Origin: Frankiaceae bacterium
GTDB taxonomy: Bacteria; Actinomycetota; Actinomycetes; Mycobacteriales; SCTD01
NCBI GenBank assembly: GCA_947479995.1
Contig: CANKBT010000001.1
Span: 25,313-89,312, forward strand
Direction of reading: 5' to 3'
DNA: 64,000 nt
The stretch's first letter is position 1, and each line of letters begins with the position of its first letter. This document shows positions 15,557-64,000 of this stretch, one piece after another. The notes below the pieces were generated by a model. It worked only from the letters and a program-made list of their open reading frames with translations, did no database searches and had not been told where the DNA came from. The position numbers were made by a program, and so were the translations under genes.

Positions 15557-15606
15557 GTGACATCTCCAATCGTAACGTCATTCAGCGTCACGCACAAGGG
15601 CGTCAT
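15557..15606. promoter_or_regulatory. Phased pentamer operator, copy 2 (GTGAC-N10-GTAAC-N10-GTCAC-N10-GTCAT)
   Basis: The core lies at 15572-15591, 60-110 nt upstream of the BVMO start, and overlaps the stop of the small upstream ORF. Confidence 0.55.
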
Positions 15607-16057
15607 CGTCCACCTCGTGGTCGGCCGCCTGCGCGCGCCGGGCCAGCGCGCCGCGCACACGCGCCAGCCGGGCGGCGCCCGGCAGCGCGACCAGCTCCTG
15701 CGCGACGAGGTCCACACGGGACAGCAGCGACTCCAGACCGGCGCGGACCACCGTGACGTCGTGCTGCGTCTGCGCCAGGCCGGCCAGCACCGGCAGGACG
15801 TCGTCCGACAGGCGGGGGAGCACCTCGGGCAGGGTCGCGTCCACCTGGGCCAGGACCCGTCGGGACGTCGCGAGGACGTCCTCGGCCTCGTCCAGCAGGC
15901 GATGGCACCGGGCCGGCAACTGCACGGTGAGCGTCACGGCGGCTGCCGCGGCGGCCGCCGTGCCGGCCGCCCCGGTGAGGGTGCCGCGCACGGCCGCGAG
16001 AGCACCGGTCAGCACGGCTGCCGGGCCGCCCGCCGCTGGCGGGGCGGCGGCCGTCAC
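15578..16057 (-). CDS. Hypothetical Ala/Leu-rich helical protein coupled to the MMPL gene
   Basis: The GTG at 16057 overlaps the MMPL stop (GTGA). This is the in-frame tail of track ORF 15578..19156 and reads as ordinary protein (LLDEAEDVLATSRRVLAQVDATLPEVLPRLSDDVLPVLAGL). No family was recognised. Confidence 0.45.
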   Translation of the reverse strand: MTAAAPPAAGGPAAVLTGALAAVRGTLTGAAGTAAAAAAAVTLTVQLPARCHRLLDEAEDVLATSRRVLAQVDATLPEVLPRLSDDVLPVLAGLAQTQHDVTVVRAGLESLLSRVDLVAQELVALPGAARLARVRGALARRAQAADHEVDDDALVRDAE

Positions 16058-19000
16058 GACGGTCCGCCGAGCACGACGGCCACCTGTCGCCGCAGGGCCG
16101 CGACGCGGCCGGGCAGCTCGCTGATCCGGCGCCAGGGGTCGGTGCCGCTGGGCCACCAGTTGTACCGGCCGAGCAGGGCCGCCAGCGCCGGGACGAGCAG
16201 GGTGCGGACCAGGAAGGTGTCCAGCAGCAGCCCGGCCGCGATGGCGAACCCGTTCTGAGCCAGGGCGTCGATCCCGGTGAACAGCATGGCCACGAAGCTG
16301 CCGGCGAAGATGACGCCGGCGGCCGTGATGACGCCGCCGGTGCTCGCCACCGCCCGGGCGATGCCGGCGCGGTCCGCGGACGGCGCCTCCTCCCGGATGC
16401 GGGACACCAGCAGGATGTTGTAGTCGACGCCCACCGCGACCAGCAGCACGAACGACAGGACCGGCACCGTCCAGTCGACGGTCTGCCCCAGCAGCCCCTG
16501 CCACACCGCGACCGTCAGCCCGAGCGCCGCGACGTAGTTGAGGAGAACGGTGGCCAGCAGGTACACCGGCGCCACCAGGCTGCGCAGCAGCAGGACGAGC
16601 GTCAGGAACACCACGGACAGGACCGACACCAGCATGAGCGCCAGGTCGCCGGCCGAGAGCTCGCGCAGGTCGCGCGTGGCGGCGGCCGGGCCGGTCGCGA
16701 GGATCTGGGTGGTCGCCAACGGCGTGCCGTGCAGCGCGTTGCGAGCCGCGGCCTGCGCGGCGTCCAGCCGGGCCTCCGCCGCGGCCTCGCCGGCCGGTTC
16801 CCCGTAGACGAGCAGGCGAGCGGTGCGGCCGTCGGGCGACAGGTAGAAGTCCCTGGCCAGCGCGAAGCTCGCGTCCTGGAAGGCGGCCGGGGGCAGGTAG
16901 AACGCCGAGACCCCGGCCGTCGTGGCCTGCTGCGAGGTCTGGGTCAGGGCGTCCGCGGCCTGTCCCAGGCCGGACTCCAGCTCCTGCGTCGCGCCGGTCA
17001 GCGCGTCGACGCCGCCGGCAAGCTGACCCGCTCCGCCGGACAGCGCCTCGGCGCCGGACACCAGCTCGTCCAGGCGGGCCGCGAACTGCTGCGCGCCCGT
17101 GGACGCCTGACCGATGCCGGCCTCGAGCTGGCCGATCCCCCCGTCGAGCCGGGCCAGGCCGCCCCGGAGCTCGGTCGCGCCCTCGGCCAGCCGGCTCGCG
17201 CCGTCCCCCGCCGTCTGCAGGCCCGGCAGGAGCTGGTCCCGCTGGCCGACGTAGATCTGCTCCAGCCCGTCGCGGGCCTCGCGGCAGACCGGGTCCACGG
17301 AGCACCAGCGGGTCGTTGCGCAGGGCCTCGGAGATCCGGCCGAGCCCGTCGACGGCCGGTGCCACCTGCTCCCGTGCGGCCCGCAGTCCCGCGTCCAGCT
17401 CGGCCAGCCCGTCGGCGAGCTGGCCGCTGCCCTGCAGTGCCGCCCGGGACCCGGCGCGCAGCTGGGCGACCCCGCCGCCGGCCTCGGCGATGCCGCTGGC
17501 CAGCCGGTCCGCCGCCCGGTCGCCCTCGACCGTGCCCGCGACCAGCTCGCGCAGCCCCTGGGCGAGCTGGTCGGCGCCGCTCTGCAGCCGGTCGGCGTCG
17601 TCGGAGCCTCCCGCCAGCTGCTGCTCGGCCTGGCGCAGGCGGTCCCCGACCAGCCCGACCTGGGCGGGCAGCTGGGCCTGGTCGATGGGCTCGCCCTGCG
17701 GCCGCGTGACGCCGCGGACGGAGGCGACGCCGGGGACGCGGGCCACCGCCTCGGTCGCGGCCTCGAGGGCGACGAGGCCTTCGGCGGTGCGCAGGTCCTG
17801 GTCGGCGGCCAGCACGACGTAGTCGGCGCGCAGCTCGTCGGACGGGAAGTGCCGGCCCAGCGCCCGCTCGCCGGCGGCGCTGTCCGATGCAGCCGGCTGG
17901 AGGGCGCGGACGTCGTAGGCGCGATCGATCGCCGGCAGCCCGGCCGACAGCGCCAGCAGCAGCAGGAGCCCCACGCCGAGGACCGCGGCCGGGCGCCGGA
18001 CGACCGCGCCGCCGACGGCCGACCACCACCGGGAGGGCCCGGCCGCCAGCGACCGAGGTGCCGCCCGCAGCCCGGCCAGGGCGGTCAGCGCCGGGGTGAG
18101 CGTGAGGCTCACCGCGAGCGTCACCAGCACCGACACGGCCAGCGACGGCCCTGTGGTGCGGAACAGCGCCAGCTCGGTGAACGCCATGCACGCCGTGCCG
18201 ACCGCCACGGTCGCAGCCGAGGCCAGCAGGACGGTCCCGACCTTGGCCGCGGCGACCCGCGTCGCCACGAGGGCCGGGTCGCCCGCGCGCAGCCGCTCGT
18301 GGTACCGGGCGATGAGGAAGATGCCGTAGTCGGTCCCCGCCCCCAGGACCAGGGCGGTGAGGAAGGCGGCGGTGTACGTCGAGACCGGCAGCCCGTGGCC
18401 GCCGAGGAAGGCGACCGCTCCCCGTGCCGCCAGGAGGGCCACGGCGATGCTGCCGAGCGGGATGAGCACGGTGACGACCCGGCGGTAGATCAGTGCCAGC
18501 AGGCCCACGATGATCAGGACGCTGAGCACCGTGACGAAGGCGACCTCCGCATCGAGCTCCTCGTTGATGTCCACGAGGGTGGCCGGGTCGCCCGTCACCG
18601 CCGTCTGGACGCCGGGCGGGTGCGCGCCGGCATGCTCGCGCAGGAAGGCGATGTCCTCGGCCGCCTCCGGGCTGCCGAGCGGGTGGCGGATCGCGACCGG
18701 CAGGTAGGCGGCCTGGCGGTCGGGGCTGACGAGCGCCTGCTCGAGACTGGGTTGGGAGACCGGGTCCTGCACGTCCGCCACGTGTTCGGCGCCGGCGCGC
18801 AGCCGGTTCGCCAGCTGCCCGAGCCAGGCGACGTCGGCTGGCTCCAGCGGGCGGTCCCGCTCGACGACGACGAAGGCGACGGACGCCGCCTCACCGCTGC
18901 CGAACGCCTCGTCCATCACCTTGAAGCCGCGGGCCGCCGGTGTGTCCGCCGGCACGAAGGCCGTGGCGTCGCGGGCCACGACGGTCTCCAGCTGCGGGAC

Positions 19001-19141
19001 GGCGAGGTTCAGGATGCCCGCCACGGCCAGCCAGGCGAGCACCGTCAGCCAGGGCCGGCGGGTGCTCAGGCGCCCCAGCCAGCCGAACGCACGCTCGCCT
19101 CGGTCGCTCGACGCCACGCTCACCCCCGACAGTGACGCCAT
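16054..19141 (-). pseudogene. MMPL/RND-family transporter with a central X-X-X-Leu-X-X-Gly heptad-repeat insert; interrupted by one frameshift near 17305
   Basis: The N-terminal half is in the frame of ORF 15578..19156 (RRPWLTVLAWL; GTDYGIFLIARYHERL) up to ...RISEALRNDPL. The C-terminal half is in the frame of ORF 16054..17298 (CSVDPVCREARDGLEQ...; VGVDYNILLVSRIREE). The total length is 3n+1. The start (ATG 19141, TTG 19156 or GTG 19117) is uncertain. Confidence 0.8.
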
Positions 19142-19181
19142 CGCGTGTGACGCCAACCGGCGTCACGGTAACAGGCGTCGT
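19132..19181. promoter_or_regulatory. Phased pentamer operator, copy 3 (GTGAC-N10-GTGAC-N10-GTCAC-N10-GTCGT)
   Basis: The core is GTGACGCCAACCGGCGTCAC at 19147-19166 (perfect 8-bp arms). It overlaps the 5' end of the MMPL gene. Confidence 0.55.
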
Positions 19182-58307: not shown

Positions 58308-60547
58308 GCGCGCTCGAGCGGCTGGGCCGCTGGTGCGCCGCGCACGGCTGGCCGGTGGTCCTGGTCTGGGTGCAGGTGCTGCTGCTGGTCCTCGGGCTCG
58401 CGGTGGCCGGGGCTCGAGCACGAGCGACGACTTCACCGTGCCGGGCTCGGGCAGCAGGCAGGCGCTGGACCTGCTCAACGAGCGCTTCCCCGCCCGAGCG
58501 GGGGTGCAGGGCCTGCTGGTCGTCAAAGTCGAGGACGGCGACCTGCAGGCGCCGGGCCCCCGGGCCGCCGTCGGCGCCGTTGCGGAACGGCTCGCGGCGG
58601 AGCCCGGTGTCAGCTCGGTCGTCCTGCCCGAGGACCAGCGCGCCGGCGGCAGGATCAGCGCCGACGGCAAGACGGGGGTGCTCGTCTTCGCCCTGGACAA
58701 GGCGCCGGGCGAGGCAGCGCCAGGTGACGTCGAGCGGGTCCTGCGGGCGGCGGCGCCCGCGCGCGCGGCGGGCCTGCAGACGGAGGTCGGCGGAGCGGTC
58801 GCCGTCGCGGCCAGCCGCCCGGAGACCGGCGCGGCAGAGCTGGTCGGGCTGACCGCCGCCGCCCTGATCCTGCTCGTCGCGTTCGGCTCCGCCGTGGCGA
58901 TGTCGCTGCCGCTCGTCACGGCGCTCGTCGGGCTCGGCATCGGCCTGGCGGCGCTCAGCGCGCTGGGTTCGGCGCTGGACATCCCGGCGGTCGCCCCCAG
59001 CCTCGCCACGATGATCGGGCTCGGTGTGGGCATCGACTACGCCCTGTTCGTGGTCACGCGCTACCGGACGCAACTGGCAGCGGGGATGCCGGTGCCGGAC
59101 GCAAGCGCCCGCGCCACGGCGACCTCCGGGGCCGGCTGTCGTCTTCGCCGGCGTCACCGTCATGATCGCCATCTGCGGCCTGGCGATCGCGGGGGTGCCC
59201 CTGATCGCCGCGCTCGGCTACGCCACCAGCCTCGTCGTCGCCCTGGCCGTGCTCGCCGCGATCACCCTGCTGCCCGCCCTGCTGGGCCTGCTGGGCCCGC
59301 GCATCGACCGGCTGAGGCTCCCGGGAACCGGTCGCGGCAACCGCAACGGGTGGCAGCGGTGGTCGCAGAAGATCGCCCGCCACCCTTGGGCGGCCGTCGG
59401 GCTGAGCCTGGCTGTCCTGCTCGCGCTGGCCGCGCCGGCACTGAGCCTGCGCCTCGGGCAGCCGGACAGCGGCAGCGCCTCGACCGGCACCACCGAGCGA
59501 CGGGCGTACGACCTGCTGGCGGCGGGCTTCGGGCCGGGCACCAACGGCCCGCTGCTGCTCGCGGTCGAGCTGGCTGAGCCGGCCCGCCCCGGTGCGGCGT
59601 CGGGAGCGGACAGGACGCCGTCTGCCGACCTTAGGGGCAGCGATCCGCGCCTGGTCCGGCTCGTCACCGGGCTCGGCGAGTTGCCCGGCGTGGCAGACGT
59701 GGCGCCGCCGGTGGTCGGACCCGACGGGCGGGCTGTGGTGATCGCGCTCGTCCCGACGACCTCGCCGCAGGACCCCCGTACCGCCACGCTGATCGACCGG
59801 CTGCGCGAGGACGTCCTGCCCGTTCTCGCTGCGCCGGGCGACCGCGTCTACGTCGGCGGCCAGACCGCCATCTTCGTCGATCTCGCCGACCGCGTCGCCC
59901 AGCGGCTGCCCTGGTTCATCGGCGCGGTCGTCCTGCTCTCCTGTCTTCTGCTGACCCTGGTCTTCCGGTCCCTGCTCATCCCACTGCAGGCCGCCGTCAT
60001 GAACGTGCTCTCGATCGGCGCCGCTCTCGGCGTTGTCGTGGCGGTGTTCCAGCAGGGCGTGGGGCTGGGCCTGGTCGGACTCGAGGAGACCGTCCCGATC
60101 ATCAGCTTCGTCCCGCTGATGATGTTCGCCATCCTGTTCGGCCTGTCCATGGACTACCAGGTCTTCCTGCTCTCCTCCGTACGGGAGGCGTGGCTGGACA
60201 GCGACGACAACCAGGAAGCCGTCACCACCGGACTGGCCGCGACCGGCCGGGTGATCACCTCAGCAGCGCTGATCATGATGGCGGTCTTCGGCAGCTTCGT
60301 CCTCAGCGACGACCCGTTGTTGAAGATCTTCGGGCTGGGGCTGACCGTCGCGATCCTGCTCGACGCGACAGTCGTGCGGTGCGTGCTCGTCCCGGCGGTG
60401 ATGGTGCTGTGTGGACGGGCGAACTGGTGGTTGCCGTCGACGCTCGGCCGGCGCCTCCCGCGGTTCGACCTCGAGTCCGCGGGAGCCGCCACGCGCGATC
60501 CCGCTCCGTCCACGACGGCGATCAGTGCCATGCCGGAGAACCCCTGA
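58304..60547 (+). pseudogene. MMPL/RND-family transporter carrying two compensating single-base frameshifts
   Basis: The GTG at 58304 overlaps the upstream stop (GTGA). Segment 1 (VSALERLGRWCAAHGWPVVLVWV...LAVAG) runs to the GGGG at 58409-58412. Segment 2 is in another frame (SSTSDDFTVPGSGSRQALDLLNERFP...GIDYALFVVTRYRTQL) and runs to the GGGG at 59128-59131. Segment 3 returns to the first frame (AVVFAGVTVMIAICGL...LSMDYQVFLLSSVREA). Confidence 0.8.
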
Positions 60548-60721
60548 CCTGACCCACCGGCGGCTGGGTAGTGGCTGGAATCGCTGCGGGACGGGATCCG
60601 CACCGCGTCGCGTGGTGCCAGCGTGGTGGCCAGCTGCAGCCGTCCAGCGCCATTCGTCGTCGTCCGCCGGAGTCGCCATACCTCCCCTGACCTGCGGTTA
60701 TGTACTTCGGCGGACCAGCCC

Positions 60722-60784
60722 GGACAGACCTTGATCACGCTGGCAGTGTGGGGGTCAGGGGTTCGAGTCCCCTCAGCTCCACCC
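60722..60784 (+). ncRNA. ssrA: Orphan 3'-terminal fragment of tmRNA (ssrA): T-arm, acceptor 3' strand and ACC
   Basis: AGGGG-TTCGAGT-CCCCT (60757-60773), then CAGCTCC-A-CC (60774-60783). This is the tmRNA-type acceptor end (it pairs with 5'-GGGGCUG). No matching 5' strand, tag ORF or pseudoknot region is evident upstream. The left boundary is uncertain. Confidence 0.5.
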
Positions 60785-60790
60785 GCGACA

Positions 60791-60818
60791 GGGCCTCCGA
60801 CCACACGGTCGGGGGCCC
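60791..60818 (+). terminator. Hairpin immediately after the tmRNA-like 3' end
   Basis: 12-bp stem GGGCCTCCGACC/GGTCGGGGGCCC (one G-U pair) with loop ACAC, starting 7 nt after the ACC. Confidence 0.45.
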
Positions 60819-61171
60819 TCGTGCGTGGCGGCGCCGGTGCGGCACCGGCACAGGAGTGCCTCACGAGCCTCTTGCTGCGGCGCCGGGCGTTGGCAGCGGC
60901 GGGCCTGCCCCGACGGCGACCGTCCCCATGCCCTGTCGGGGCAGCGCGACAACGCCGCAATCGCGATCAGGCTGTCCACAGACTGCGTGCGTGAGGCACT
61001 CCCCATGCTGCGCTTGAGTCGTCTCACAAGCGAGCTTGACGAAATGGCGCGAGAACGACTCTCAGTGGACTTCACAGTGAGGAGGAGCTCTCGGCCGCAG
61101 GATCGGCCGCCTCGCGCGTCCTGCCTCGCGAAGCTGCCACACATGCCAGTAGTGGTCGATAGCGTCACCCC

Positions 61172-64000
61172 GTGTCCCTCGCCGCCGATCTCCGCCCGGT
61201 CGCCGACCTCCCCTCCGTCGGTCAACTCGTCAGCGTGAGAGCCCGCAACTGGGTCGTGACCGACGTCCAGCCCAGCGCTCTGCCGTACGACGTCGCGGGC
61301 ATCGGTCAGGCGGAGGGGGCGACCTTCGTCAGCCTCAGCAGCGTCGAGGACGACGGGCTGGGGGAGGAGCTGCGCGTCCTGTGGGAGCTGGAGTCGGGGC
61401 GGCGGGTCCTGAACCGCGCCACCCTCCCGGACGTGGGCGAGGGGCGCTTCGACGACCCGGCCCAGCTCGGCGCCTTCCTCGACGCACTCCGCTGGGGCGC
61501 GGTCACCAGCGCCGAGACCACCGTCCTGCAGGCGCCGTTCCGGGCGGGCATCGCGGTCGAGGACTACCAGCTCGAGCCGGCCATCCGTGCCTTGCGCCTG
61601 CCCCGCGTCAACCTGCTGGTCGCTGATGACGTCGGTCTGGGCAAGACGATCGAGGCCGGCCTGGTCGTCCAGGAGCTCCTGCTCCGCAGCCGGGTCCGCC
61701 GGGTCATGGTGGTCTGCCCCGCGCACCTGACAGACAAGTGGCACGACGAGATGCTCGACCGGTTCGGCCTGGACTTCACGGTCGTCAACAGCGACACCGT
61801 CAGTCAGGTCCGTCGCGAGCGAGGTCTGCACGCCAACCCGTTCAAGGTCTACCCCTACACGATCGTGAGCCTGGCGTGGCTGCGCGGGCCCAAGGCGGGC
61901 CGTCTGCTCGACGAGGTGCTGTCGCACGGCGGTCCCGGGCGTGCCCGGCCGCTCGACCTGCTCATCGTCGACGAGGCGCACCACGTCGCGCCGCCCGGCA
62001 AGGGCCAGTACGCCGTCGACAGCCAGCAGACCAAGGTTGTCAAGCGGCTCGCCGACCAGGCCGAGCACCGGCTGTTCATGTCCGCGACGCCGCACAACGG
62101 CTACGCCGAGTCCTTCACCGCCCTGCTGGCGATGCTCGACCCGCAGCGCTTCGCCCGGGGGGTCGTGCCGGACCCGGCGGCGCTCAAGCAGATCCTCGTC
62201 CGCCGGCTGAAGACCGAGATCACCAACGCCGACGGCAGCCCGCGCTACCCGGCACGTGAGGCCAAGGACATCACCGTCACCTACCCCGAGGTCGAGCTGC
62301 AGGTCCAGCAGCTGCTCGCCGACTACACGCGAGCGCGCTCCGCCAAGGCCGCAGCCGCCCGCGCCAAGGCGAAGAAGGCAGGCATCGACCTGCTCGGCCT
62401 GCTGCTGAAGAAGCGCTACTTCAGCAGCCCAGCGGCGTTCAGCAGCACGATCCTGCAGGTCCGCGAGAACACGTTGCGCCCCGACCTGCAGTGGCCCAGC
62501 GACGACTACGCCATCGAGATCGACACCGATTACGCCCACGGCCTCGACGAGGACCGCCAGCAGCTGCTCGACGGCGACTTCTACGACGATGACGCCGTCG
62601 ACGCCGCCGAGCAGGAGGCACTCGCCAAGGCCCAACGCGCGGCAGGCGAGGCGGACGAGCGGGAGGCAGAGCTGCTGCAGCAGCTCTGCGCCTGGGCCGA
62701 GCAGCACGGACACGAGACGGACGCCAAGGCCCGCGCCCTGCTCGACTTCCTGCGCGCCACCTGCCTGACCGACGGCGCCTGGAACGACGAGCGCGTCGTC
62801 GTCTTCACCGAGTACCGCGACACCCAGACCTGGCTGCTCGACCTGCTCGAGCGCCACGGCCTCGCGGAGCCCGGCCGGGTCGAGCTGCTGTACGGCGGCA
62901 TGGACGACGACAAGCGCGCCGCCGTCATGCGCGCCTTCCAGCGCGACCCCGAGCAGCACGCGCTGCGCATCATCCTGGCCACCGACACCGCCAGCGAGGG
63001 CGTCGACCTGCAAACCTACTGCCACCGGCTGGTCAACTACGATCTGCCGTTCAACCCGAACCGCATGGAGCAGCGCGCCGGCCGCATCGACCGGTACGGG
63101 CAGAAGCACGTGCCGCTCGTCTACCACTTTGCCGGCAGCGACTGGCAGACCGCGAGCCAGGACAGCCTGCAGGGCGACCTGCAGTTCCTCATCATCATCG
63201 CGCGCAAGATCGCCACGGCGCGCGAGGACCTCGGGAGCGTCAACCCCGTCATCAGCGACGCCGTGGAGCGCCGCATGCTCGGCCGGCCTGCCCGTGACTT
63301 CGACGTCGACCGGACCCTCGCGAAGGCCAAGGCCGACCCCGCGCTCAAGGTGGAGCGGCAGCTGCGCGAGGAGACCGCCCGGCTCGCCGCCACCCTCGAC
63401 GACAGCCGGCGCCAGCTGCACTGCTCACCGGCTGACATCGAGCGCGTCGTCCGCACCGGCCTGGCACTCGGTCGCCAGCCCGACCTCACGCCCGAGGACC
63501 GCGACGGCCACACCGTCTTCCACGTCGGCACCCTCACCGGCTCCTGGGCGCGCAGCGTCACCGACCTCACCGACCCCGACTACGGCCAGCGCCCCATCTC
63601 CTTCGACCCGGCGTACGCCGCTACCCGCCCCGACGTCGTCCTCGCCCACCTCAACCACCGCCTGGTCGCGATGGCGACCCGCCTGCTCCGCGCCGAGGTC
63701 TGGGGCAGCGACCGCAGCAGCCTCGCCCGAGTGGCCAGCATCCGGGTCGAGGGTCTGCAGACCGAGGTCCTCGCGGCCTACAGCCGCCTCGTCCTCATCG
63801 GCGCCGACGGCCAGCGACTGCACGAGGAGCTCGTCCCTGCCGGCGGCCTGCTGCGCGACGGCTCCTTCAACCGCCTGGGCGTCGGAGACCTCGCCGCCAG
63901 CCTCGACGCCGCCCTCGGCCCGGACGCTCGCCCCGCCGCAGCCGGGGAACAGGCCCGCCAGGCGCTCGTCGCTGCCTGGCCGAGGGTCAGCGGCAACCTG
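61172..64000 (+). CDS. SNF2-family helicase, DrmD-like (3' end lies outside the window)
   Basis: This is not in the ORF track because it has no stop. An in-frame TAG lies at 61160-61162 and the first start is GTG 61172. The frame then stays open for 943 codons to position 64000. Motifs: VADDVGLGKTIEAG (I), LLIVDEAHHV (II), MSATPHNG (III), ILATDTASEGVDLQ (V) and NPNRMEQRAGRIDRYGQ (VI). It has an N-terminal domain of about 150 aa (GQLVSVRARNWVVTDV...LRVLWELE...ALRWGAVTSA) and a long C-terminal extension. The confidence value is for the SNF2 call; the DrmD assignment is about 0.45. Confidence 0.8.
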   Translation, partial: MSLAADLRPVADLPSVGQLVSVRARNWVVTDVQPSALPYDVAGIGQAEGATFVSLSSVEDDGLGEELRVLWELESGRRVLNRATLPDVGEGRFDDPAQLGAFLDALRWGAVTSAETTVLQAPFRAGIAVEDYQLEPAIRALRLPRVNLLVADDVGLGKTIEAGLVVQELLLRSRVRRVMVVCPAHLTDKWHDEMLDRFGLDFTVVNSDTVSQVRRERGLHANPFKVYPYTIVSLAWLRGPKAGRLLDEVLSHGGPGRARPLDLLIVDEAHHVAPPGKGQYAVDSQQTKVVKRLADQAEHRLFMSATPHNGYAESFTALLAMLDPQRFARGVVPDPAALKQILVRRLKTEITNADGSPRYPAREAKDITVTYPEVELQVQQLLADYTRARSAKAAAARAKAKKAGIDLLGLLLKKRYFSSPAAFSSTILQVRENTLRPDLQWPSDDYAIEIDTDYAHGLDEDRQQLLDGDFYDDDAVDAAEQEALAKAQRAAGEADEREAELLQQLCAWAEQHGHETDAKARALLDFLRATCLTDGAWNDERVVVFTEYRDTQTWLLDLLERHGLAEPGRVELLYGGMDDDKRAAVMRAFQRDPEQHALRIILATDTASEGVDLQTYCHRLVNYDLPFNPNRMEQRAGRIDRYGQKHVPLVYHFAGSDWQTASQDSLQGDLQFLIIIARKIATAREDLGSVNPVISDAVERRMLGRPARDFDVDRTLAKAKADPALKVERQLREETARLAATLDDSRRQLHCSPADIERVVRTGLALGRQPDLTPEDRDGHTVFHVGTLTGSWARSVTDLTDPDYGQRPISFDPAYAATRPDVVLAHLNHRLVAMATRLLRAEVWGSDRSSLARVASIRVEGLQTEVLAAYSRLVLIGADGQRLHEELVPAGGLLRDGSFNRLGVGDLAASLDAALGPDARPAAAGEQARQALVAAWPRVSGNL

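What the first reader, a model, noticed from the sequence alone, without database searches (positions are those of the whole stretch)
60548..60818. Orphan tmRNA 3' end plus hairpin in a 620-bp non-coding gap: a candidate genomic-island junction (att site)
Positions 60757-60784 fold as a T-arm (AGGGG/TTCGAGT/CCCCT) followed by CAGCTCC-A-CC. This is the acceptor 3' strand typical of tmRNA, which pairs with 5'-GGGGCUG including the G-U pair. A 12-bp hairpin follows 7 nt later. The required 5' strand (GGGGCTG or GGAGCTG) is absent within 400 nt upstream. No tag reading frame ending in ..AA-stop is visible, and the MMPL gene ends only 237 nt upstream. So this is a fragment, not a gene. Duplicated 3' ends of ssrA are the standard scar left by integrases that target tmRNA. 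By the usual geometry a displaced 3' fragment marks the distal (attR) end of an element that lies to its left. Yet it is the gene to the right that looks island-like. Tandem islands or a rearrangement are therefore possible, and the direction is unresolved.
Basis: partly seen in the sequence, partly recalled or inferred. Interest (0 to 1): 0.6.

Follow-up and report, generated by a model that had tools for sequence, protein, structure and literature searches.

The report
Orphan tRNA-Ala fragment bounding defence island
The "tmRNA end" is really the last two-thirds of an alanine tRNA gene, left behind by integrating mobile DNA. It marks the left edge of a 21-kb anti-phage defence island, which is a familiar kind of scar with one unusual feature: no intact tRNA gene or integrase is nearby.

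Summary
The sequence features are real: T arm, CAGCTCC-A-CC, a 13-bp hairpin, no 5' acceptor strand, and a 624-nt gap. The fragment is not tmRNA. Bases 60740-60783 are 44/44 identical to nt 32-75 of tRNA-Ala(GGC), with anticodon GGC at 60742-44. That gene was found intact 78 times in soil metagenomes.

It is an att-type repeat. A second copy (1 mismatch, same orientation) lies about 21.3 kb to the right, beyond the window. Between the copies is an integrase-less defence island carrying complete DISARM class 1, GmrSD, DUF559, HEC-07 and a PDC-M09A-like gene.

Left of the block, 60613-60734 is a P arm from another element. It is 85% identical to an arm in an unrelated contig and starts with integrase-arm-type direct repeats. 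Further left there are 70 kb of ordinary lipid-metabolism chromosome, with no tRNA and no integrase.

Six independent contigs are identical up to 60787. They then show at least three, and probably four, different right flanks, so the block is the exact breakpoint of strain variation.

Best reading: this is a tandem-array junction. The orphan block still serves as a recombination site for a CIME-like island, with the integrase supplied in trans.

It is a new member of a known kind, of modest interest.

The parts
59162..60547 (+). C-terminal half of an MMPL transporter gene, the last chromosomal gene on the left. The gene is frameshifted; its N-terminal half is in another frame at 58438-59577.
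   Evidence: Pfam MMPL. The 461-aa product is identical on 8 contigs. The gene is in a single frame in the relative L011.
60613..60636 (+). Direct repeats TGGTGCCAGCG / TGGTGGCCAGCTG. These are candidate integrase arm-type binding sites at the outer edge of the P arm.
   Evidence: The same motif lies between the tRNA hairpin and the integrase stop codon in L124, L109, L072, L103 and L051. Homology to L069 and L066 begins exactly here.
60613..60734 (+). P arm, the scar of an earlier integrative element. It includes TGACCTGCGG (60688-97) and CGGAC repeats (60711-15 and 60721-25).
   Evidence: 85% identical over 122 nt to L069 4408-4529, which sits in a different context (AbiEii toxin and IS21, no MMPL). 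76% identical to L066, and similar to the arm in viral contig L016.
60735..60751 (+). Anticodon-arm remnant TCACG/CTGGCAG/TGTGG, with anticodon GGC at 60742-60744. The 5' strand differs from the real tRNA (CCACA).
   Evidence: Read directly from the sequence. Aligned to the intact gene.
60740..60783 (+). Block 1: 44 nt identical to tRNA-Ala(GGC) nt 32-75. It covers the anticodon loop, variable loop, T arm 60757-73, acceptor 3' strand 60774-80, discriminator A and CC. It is the left direct repeat of the island.
   Evidence: Exact match to 78 intact tRNA-Ala(GGC) genes. The second copy is at L142 491-448.
60784..60787 (+). CGCG: the last bases shared by all contigs that read past the block (window, L003, L008) and by block 2. 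L002 differs at its final base, 60785. Strain sequences diverge after 60787.
60790..60819 (+). 13-bp G+C-rich hairpin with no T run. It is of the tRNA-terminator type and is homologous to the hairpin after block 2.
   Evidence: Fold. The block-plus-hairpin alignment is 78/93 identical to the block 2 region. No canonical terminator was scored.
60820..61171 (+). Non-coding leader of the island. It holds no integrase and no integrase remnant.
   Evidence: tblastn with 6 integrases finds nothing. No ORF with coding composition.
61172..64000 (+). drmD (SNF2 helicase, 1061 aa; it runs off the window). This is the first gene of a DISARM class 1 system and of the 21.3-kb island, which ends at window-equivalent ~82068.
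   Evidence: Pfam SNF2/Helicase_C. PADLOC DrmD 1279 bits. DrmMI, DrmA, DrmB and DrmC follow.

Best explanation
The fragment is the 3' two-thirds of a tRNA-Ala(GGC) gene (nt 32-75). This is the 'identity block' that anticodon-loop-targeting tyrosine integrases duplicate when an element integrates into a tRNA gene.

In this genome it is the left member of a pair of direct repeats. The pair encloses a 21.3-kb defence island with no integrase: DISARM class 1, GmrSD, DUF559, HEC-07 and a PDC-M09A-like gene.

The ~125 nt just left of the block are the P arm of a different, earlier element. The site is therefore an internal junction of a former tandem array: [P arm of element X][block][hairpin and DNA of island Y]. 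Element X and the intact tRNA gene that once stood to its left are gone from this locus, by deletion or rearrangement.

**Inferred step.** The orphan block keeps the whole core (anticodon stem-loop), so it still works as an attachment site. Integrases supplied in trans by related elements insert, remove or replace DNA at its 3' side. That would explain why strains with an identical left flank carry different DNA immediately after 60787. On this reading the island behaves like a cis-mobilizable element (CIME).
For: **Identity**
- 44/44 nt match 78 intact tRNA-Ala(GGC) genes, with anticodon GGC in a proper 7-nt loop.
- ARAGORN calls such a gene tRNA-Ala(ggc) in L118.

**Second copy**
- Same orientation, 1 mismatch (G68 to A), followed by a homologous hairpin.
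- It lies 21,329 bp downstream on a contig that carries the same island proteins.

**Island content**
- Defence genes only (PADLOC).
- No Phage_integrase domain in the island genes (part re-scanned in 64) and no tblastn remnant.
- G+C about 0.70, with a dip to 0.59, against 0.737 for the window.

**Left side is chromosome**
- Mce operon, FadE/A/B/D, MMPLs, P450 and AtuA/carboxylase, with no tRNA or integrase over 70 kb.
- Synteny with the Frankiales and Mycobacteriales MAGs.

**P arm**
- Homology to L069, L066 and L016 starts at arm-type repeats that elsewhere sit next to integrase genes.

**Breakpoint**
- Six contigs from five or more samples are 100% identical up to 60787.
- Window, L003 and L008 then differ at once, L002 differs in its last base, and three contigs end inside or at the block.

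**Canonical comparators in the same data**
- L118: tRNA, a 5.3-kb element, then an orphan block.
- 17 intact genes with an integrase on the opposite strand within 500 nt.
- Orphan blocks with an integrase on either side.

**Literature**
- Displaced tDNA fragments mark island ends; crossover subsites include the anticodon loop; tandem arrays occur (PMC4383910).
- CIME definition and accretion model (PMC5704250).
- Rearrangements can separate partial and full tRNA copies (PMC9897764).
Against: - No intact tRNA-Ala(GGC) gene and no integrase were found anywhere on the ~93 kb examined, so neither the 'former tandem array' nor the trans-acting integrase has been seen.
- Block 2 was read on a contig from a different assembly (ERZ27277814, k141_2560798). 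It carries identical island proteins, but block 2 was not read on the window's own scaffold, which should end about 220 nt after it.
- The L003, L008 and L002 flanks are only 1-230 nt long, so what they lead into is unknown.
- No empty site and no circular junction was observed.
- Homologous recombination, rather than site-specific recombination, could in principle spread one left junction among strains.
- The arm-type-site assignment rests on motif recurrence only.
Confidence: 0.75

Rival explanations
1. It is a displaced 3' end of the tmRNA gene (ssrA), left by an ssrA-targeting integrase.
For: - The acceptor strand CAGCTCC-A-CC and the T arm are also typical of tmRNA.
- The best Rfam clan hit is the tmRNA model (19.9 bits, E = 6e-06 on 801 nt).
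Against: - The score is far below the gathering score of 47 and covers only the T arm and acceptor.
- The upstream 25 nt form a tRNA variable loop and an anticodon arm with GGC.
- The whole 44 nt is identical to 78 intact tRNA-Ala(GGC) genes.
- No tag reading frame or pseudoknot is present.
- ARAGORN finds no tmRNA.
Confidence: 0.02
2. It is a plain attR. The element that made the fragment is a very large island (more than 82 kb) lying to the left and including the MMPL, FadE and Mce genes. The differing right flanks are the chromosomes of different hosts, or different tRNA-Ala loci.
For: - Standard geometry puts the element to the left of a + strand 3' fragment.
- The left side is 100% identical in all contigs while the right side differs.
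- The hairpin after the block resembles hairpins that follow intact tRNA-Ala genes (L133, L080).
Against: - 70 kb to the left contain no integrase, transfer, replication or phage gene and no tRNA.
- The gene order FadE-TetR-4HBT-BtrH-MMPL is conserved in MAGs at 79-94% identity, as expected for chromosome.
- Homology to other elements' arms stops 66 nt after the MMPL stop codon.
- The right side is bounded by a second block and consists purely of defence cargo.
Confidence: 0.05
3. It is a fossil only. The island integrated long ago at an intact tRNA, a later deletion or inversion removed the tRNA and the proximal element, and both blocks are now inert. The right-flank differences between contigs come from ordinary recombination or from different species sharing a recently swept left region.
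For: - There is no integrase in the island or the window.
- Block 2 carries a mutation that would mispair the acceptor stem.
- The Frankiales MAG L011 may hold a further-decayed remnant at the same place.
Against: - The junction shared by all contigs is the orphan junction, so the right-flank variants most simply arose after it formed and exactly at the block.
- A 44-nt patch is a poor substrate for homologous recombination.
- tRNA-Ala(GGC)-targeting integrases are abundant in these communities.
Confidence: 0.18

Closest known systems
Displaced tDNA 3' fragment at the end of a genomic island (Reiter 1989; Williams 2002; Islander, PMC4383910), anticodon-loop ('A') crossover class
   Same: - The identity block runs from the anticodon loop to the 3' end of the tRNA gene.
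- It occurs as a direct repeat at both ends of an island and is followed by a terminator-like hairpin.
- The same block sits next to tyrosine integrases in many related loci.
   Different: The proximal copy is not an intact, regenerated tRNA gene but another orphan fragment. The island carries no integrase gene, so Islander's filters would reject it.
CIME (cis-mobilizable element) and tandem accretion (Pavlovic 2004; Bellanger 2011; reviewed in PMC5704250). An actinobacterial precedent is cited there: Zhang & Loria 2017, Streptomyces pathogenicity islands.
   Same: The island is flanked by att-type repeats, lacks integration and transfer genes, and has a junction carrying the arm of another element, as expected after accretion.
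   Different: Mobility is not shown. The target gene itself is absent from the array, and the cargo is a defence island.
DISARM class 1 defence system (Ofir et al. 2018; from my own knowledge, not read here)
   Same: drmD, drmMI, drmA, drmB (DUF1998/MZB) and drmC (PLD) all match PADLOC models strongly and are in the usual order.
   Different: A low-G+C FRG-domain gene (PDC-S15) is inserted between drmMI and drmA. This concerns the cargo, not the finding itself.
tmRNA (ssrA) 3' fragments at islands
   Same: They share the Ala-type acceptor strand (G3:U70 partner) and a T arm.
   Different: The upstream sequence is a tRNA anticodon arm and variable loop. This is not tmRNA.

Membership tests
tmRNA gene fragment | Sequence upstream of the T arm is tmRNA-specific (no anticodon arm), and the covariance model reaches its threshold. 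| tested here: not met
   Rfam tmRNA scores 19.9 bits against a gathering score of 47, on the T arm and acceptor only. An anticodon arm with GGC lies at 60735-51.
tRNA-Ala(GGC) 3' identity block (att repeat) | Identical to the 3' part of a real tRNA gene. | tested here: met
   44/44 nt match 78 intact genes. ARAGORN calls L118 48-122 tRNA-Ala(ggc).
tRNA-Ala(GGC) 3' identity block (att repeat) | Identity starts at a known crossover subsite (anticodon loop, T loop or T/acceptor junction). | tested here: met
   Identity starts at C32, the first base of the anticodon loop, in the window, block 2, L016, L069 and L118. Subsites as listed in PMC4383910.
tRNA-Ala(GGC) 3' identity block (att repeat) | A second copy in direct orientation bounds an island. 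| tested here: met
   L142 491-448 (the + strand in window orientation), 1 mismatch, 21,329 bp downstream. It was read on a sister contig, not on the window's own scaffold.
Canonical tRNA-integrated genomic island (Islander definition) | An intact, regenerated tRNA gene at the proximal end. | tested here: not met
   No tRNA in the window, L005, L140 or L142. The proximal copy lacks nt 1-27.
Canonical tRNA-integrated genomic island (Islander definition) | An integrase gene inside the island. | tested here: not met
   No Phage_integrase domain in any island gene. tblastn with six integrases finds nothing.
CIME (cis-mobilizable element) | att sites retained at both ends, with integration and transfer genes lost. 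| tested here: met
   Two blocks with hairpins and no integrase or transfer genes.
CIME (cis-mobilizable element) | Excision or mobilization by an integrase supplied by another element. | not testable with these tools
   Only indirect evidence: at least three, and probably four, right-flank variants at one identical left junction.
Tandem-array junction | The P arm of another element lies directly upstream of the internal repeat. | tested here: met
   60613-60734 is 85% identical to the L069 arm, 76% to L066 and similar to L016. It carries the arm-type repeat motif shared with the integrase-adjacent P' arms of L124, L109 and L072.
DISARM class 1 (cargo) | drmD, drmMI, drmA, drmB and drmC all present. 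| tested here: met
   PADLOC scores: DrmD 1279, DrmMI 1499, DrmA 932, DrmB 227 and DrmC 164 bits.

The most novel reading that the evidence does not exclude
An orphan tRNA-Ala 3' block, no longer attached to any tRNA gene, persists as a stand-alone landing pad. Integrases supplied in trans by the many tRNA-Ala(GGC)-targeting elements of soil Actinobacteria repeatedly swap whole defence islands at it. This would be cassette-like exchange of integrase-less islands, decoupled from the tRNA gene that normally defines the site.
Probability: 0.35. Interest if true: 0.5.

Novelty: new member of a known kind. Interest (0 to 1): 0.3.

Why it matters
- **A labelling trap.** Ala-type acceptor ends are shared by tRNA-Ala and tmRNA, and Rfam's best clan hit here is the wrong one.
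- **Island mapping.** It gives base-level boundaries for a complete DISARM-plus-GmrSD defence island in an uncultured actinobacterium. Standard island finders would miss it, because they require an intact tRNA gene and an integrase.
- **A testable idea.** If the orphan block is still used, fragments of tRNA genes can outlive the gene at a locus and keep acting as hot spots for defence-gene turnover. Metagenomic reads or a simple integration assay could test this.

Tried and rejected
- **tmRNA or permuted tmRNA.** Rejected.
- **A hidden 5' half or decayed tRNA in the 190 nt upstream, or in the arms of L069, L066, L016 and arm 2.** Local alignment to the full tRNA scores at chance level.
- **Integrase pseudogene next to the block.** A 54-aa tblastn match at 60574-60732 on the minus strand has E = 8.5. 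It has no support from five other integrases, so I treat it as noise.
- **Homology of the window's right flank (60785-61171) to other loci, or to arm 2.** None beyond the hairpin; no shared 9-mers.
- **Intact tRNA at the orthologous place in relatives.** None in the Mycobacteriales, Frankiales or Blastococcus loci. L011 has only a 15-nt possible remnant.
- **Extending the L003 and L008 right flanks in viral contigs.** No match.
- **The search for homologous proteins with the partial DrmA.** It did not return the scaffold's own protein. Ids from the listing of cluster members were accepted and gave the right-hand end.
- **The related DISARM contig L139.** It has no tRNA-Ala block, so the DISARM cargo is not tied to this att site.
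- **OYE-like right-flank gene.** Not found beside any other block.

Full report
**1. Observation**

The window is part of a 104-kb metagenome scaffold (ENA ERZ28612979, scaffold_1651). Window coordinate equals record coordinate minus 21,726.

- T arm at 60757-73, CAGCTCC at 60774-80, A at 60781, CC at 60782-83.
- A 13-bp G+C hairpin, 60790-60802 pairing with 60807-60819.
- No 5' acceptor strand.
- A 624-nt gap between an MMPL gene (stop at 60547) and the next gene (start at 61172).

ARAGORN finds no tRNA or tmRNA in the window, and no Rfam family reaches its threshold. The 24-mer is unique in the window, with 0 expected by chance.

**2. What the fragment is**

With relaxed thresholds, the only notable Rfam hit is tmRNA at 19.9 bits against a gathering score of 47. 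It covers only the T arm and acceptor strand.

GGGTC (60752-56) is a class-I variable loop. TCACG/CTGGCAG/TGTGG (60735-51) is an anticodon arm whose 7-nt loop carries GGC.

- 78 of the 122 occurrences are intact genes reading GGGGCTGTGGCGCAGCTGGTAGCGCACCACACTGGCAGTGTGGGGGTCAGGGGTTCGAGTCCCCTCAGCTCCACC.
- ARAGORN calls one of these (L118 48-122) tRNA-Ala(ggc).
- Window 60740-60783 is 44/44 identical to nt 32-75 of this gene.
- Identity starts at the first base of the anticodon loop.

So this is a tRNA-Ala(GGC) fragment. tmRNA and tRNA-Ala share the alanine acceptor identity, which explains the confusion.

**3. Surroundings**

*Left.* All 60 kb of the window, plus 10 kb further left, is ordinary actinobacterial lipid metabolism.
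- Genes include a YrbE/Mce operon, FadE, FadA, FadB, FadD, several MMPLs, P450, and AtuA with acyl-CoA carboxylase.
- There is no integrase, no transfer or phage gene, and no tRNA.
- The order FadE-TetR-thioesterase-BtrH_N-MMPL is conserved in a Mycobacteriales MAG (93%) and a Frankiales MAG (79-94%).

*Right.* The genes are, in order:
- drmD (SNF2, 1061 aa)
- drmMI (1375 aa)
- an FRG/PDC-S15 gene
- drmA (1277 aa)
- drmB
- drmC
- GmrSD
- DUF559
- HEC-07
- a 142-aa ORF
- a PDC-M09A-like gene

This is a pure defence island. Its G+C is about 0.70, with a dip to 0.59, against 0.737 for the window. It has no integrase domain or remnant.

*Second copy.* On a sister contig that carries the same island proteins, a second copy of the block follows the last island gene.
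- It reads CTGGCAGTGTGGGGGTCAGGGGTTCGAGTCCCCTCAaCTCCACCCGCG.
- It has the same orientation and one mismatch.
- It is again not preceded by a tRNA 5' half.
- After it come a homologous hairpin and then the 3' end of a minus-strand gene. By eye that gene resembles an OYE-type flavin oxidoreductase; Pfam gave no hit on the 127-aa piece.

Repeat-to-repeat distance is 21,329 bp (window-equivalent 60740 to 82069).

**4. Population evidence**

Six contigs from at least five samples are 100% identical to the window from the left up to 60787 (..CCACCCGCG).
- After 60787, the window, L003 and L008 each continue with a different hairpin and different DNA.
- L002 differs in its last base.
- L002, L007 and L009 end at or inside the block.
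- L144 also ends about where block 2 is predicted, though its terminal sequence was not read.

The block is therefore the exact breakpoint of strain variation, and it is a repeat that breaks assemblies.

**5. The DNA just left of the block is not chromosome**

- Window 60613-60734 is 85% identical to L069 4408-4529. There it lies downstream of an AbiEii toxin gene and IS21, not an MMPL.
- It is 76% identical to L066 and resembles the arm in viral contig L016. In L016 the same block is followed by a hairpin and a 412-aa tyrosine integrase.
- Homology begins at the direct repeats TGGTGCCAGCG TGGTGGCCAGCTG (60613-36).
- In L072 and its relatives, the same motif lies between the tRNA hairpin and the integrase stop codon. 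That is the position expected for arm-type binding sites. This last step is inference.

So 60613-60787 is a P arm plus identity block, that is, an attR-type junction made by an element that is no longer there.

**6. Mechanism**

*Established.* Integration into a + strand tRNA gene leaves the regenerated gene on the left and [P arm + fragment] on the right (PMC4383910; L118 in this data set is the textbook case).
- When a second element enters the regenerated gene, the earlier junction becomes internal.
- That junction reads [P arm of the new element][block][hairpin and DNA of the old element].
- This is the architecture at 60613-60820.

*Inferred.*
- The island between the two blocks is the older member of a tandem array, or it entered the orphan block later.
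- The proximal element and the tRNA gene were then lost from this locus by deletion or rearrangement. Such separations are documented in PMC9897764.

All contigs share the orphan junction but differ after it. The later events therefore most simply happened at the orphan block, which still has the complete core. They would have used integrases supplied in trans.

Integrases that target tRNA-Ala(GGC) are abundant in these communities:
- 17 of the 78 intact genes have one within 500 nt on the opposite strand.
- Orphan blocks occur with integrases on either side.

The island thus fits the definition of a CIME: att sites kept, integration genes lost (PMC5704250). Its mobility is not shown.

The single mismatch in block 2 (G68 to A, opposite C5) fits a copy that is not under selection. 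With only 44 nt, this is weak evidence.

**7. Rivals**

- **tmRNA fragment:** refuted.
- **Plain attR of a giant element on the left:** unlikely, given the gene content, the conserved synteny, and an arm that ends 66 nt after the MMPL stop.
- **Inert fossil:** possible (about 0.18). It does not explain variation exactly at the block.

**8. Comparison and verdict**

This is the well-known tRNA-fragment signature of genomic islands, in a decayed tandem or CIME-like form. The unusual points are:
- Both bounding copies are orphan fragments.
- No tRNA gene or integrase lies within about 93 kb.
- The site still looks active in the population.

It is a new member of a known kind. Interest is modest (0.3). 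The landing-pad reading (probability about 0.35) would raise it to about 0.5.

**9. Dead ends**

These are listed under Tried and rejected. The main ones were:
- searches for a decayed 5' half;
- searches for integrase remnants;
- attempts to extend the alternative flanks;
- one protein search that missed its own target.

Noticed in passing
window 58438-60547: The MMPL gene next to the fragment has its two halves in different frames (N half 58438-59577, C half 59162-60547). The same arrangement appears in six independent metagenome contigs. The ortholog in the Frankiales MAG L011 (6317-8362) is in one frame. This looks like a real frameshift or pseudogene near 59101-59162, not a sequencing error.
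   Followed up: partly
window 15578-19156 (minus strand): A second MMPL gene also shows its N-terminal domain in one ORF (15578-19156) and its C-terminal domain in another frame (16054-17298).
   Followed up: no
L140 8001-11000 (window-equivalent ~66.5-69.5 kb, beyond the window): G+C drops to 0.585-0.63 over the 3' third of drmMI and the FRG-domain (PDC-S15) gene, against 0.70-0.74 around it. This looks like a mosaic insertion inside the DISARM operon, between drmMI and drmA.
   Followed up: no
L011 8886-8906 (Frankiales MAG, ~0.5 kb downstream of the orthologous MMPL): CCTGGCAGTGTGGGGG matches tRNA-Ala(GGC) nt 31-46 and is followed directly by CGCG, as if the T arm and acceptor strand had been deleted. 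The local alignment score is 30, against a maximum of 29 in 200 shuffles. It may be an older remnant of the same att site, or chance.
   Followed up: partly
metagenome loci L019-L138: tRNA-Ala(GGC) is a very busy integration site in soil Actinobacteria. 44 of the 122 sampled occurrences of the 42-mer are orphan blocks. L027, L044, L098 and L118 carry two copies. L111 has an inverted pair about 1 kb apart. L066 has a large serine recombinase, not a tyrosine integrase, right next to an orphan block.
   Followed up: partly
L072, L106, L077, L085, L124, L109 (just downstream of tRNA + hairpin); window 60613-60636: Two or three direct repeats of TGGT(G/T)(G/C)C(C/A)AG sit between the tRNA terminator hairpin and the integrase stop codon. 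These are candidate arm-type sites of one integrase family. In L124 the adjacent integrase appears to lack its C-terminal part.
   Followed up: partly
window 60751-60780: The five G's of the variable-loop region (60751-55) can pair with GCTCC of the acceptor strand, giving a minihelix-like fold. The Rfam tmRNA model uses this for its alignment. It is probably a coincidence of the tRNA sequence, but it inflates tmRNA-like scores for tRNA-Ala fragments.
   Followed up: no
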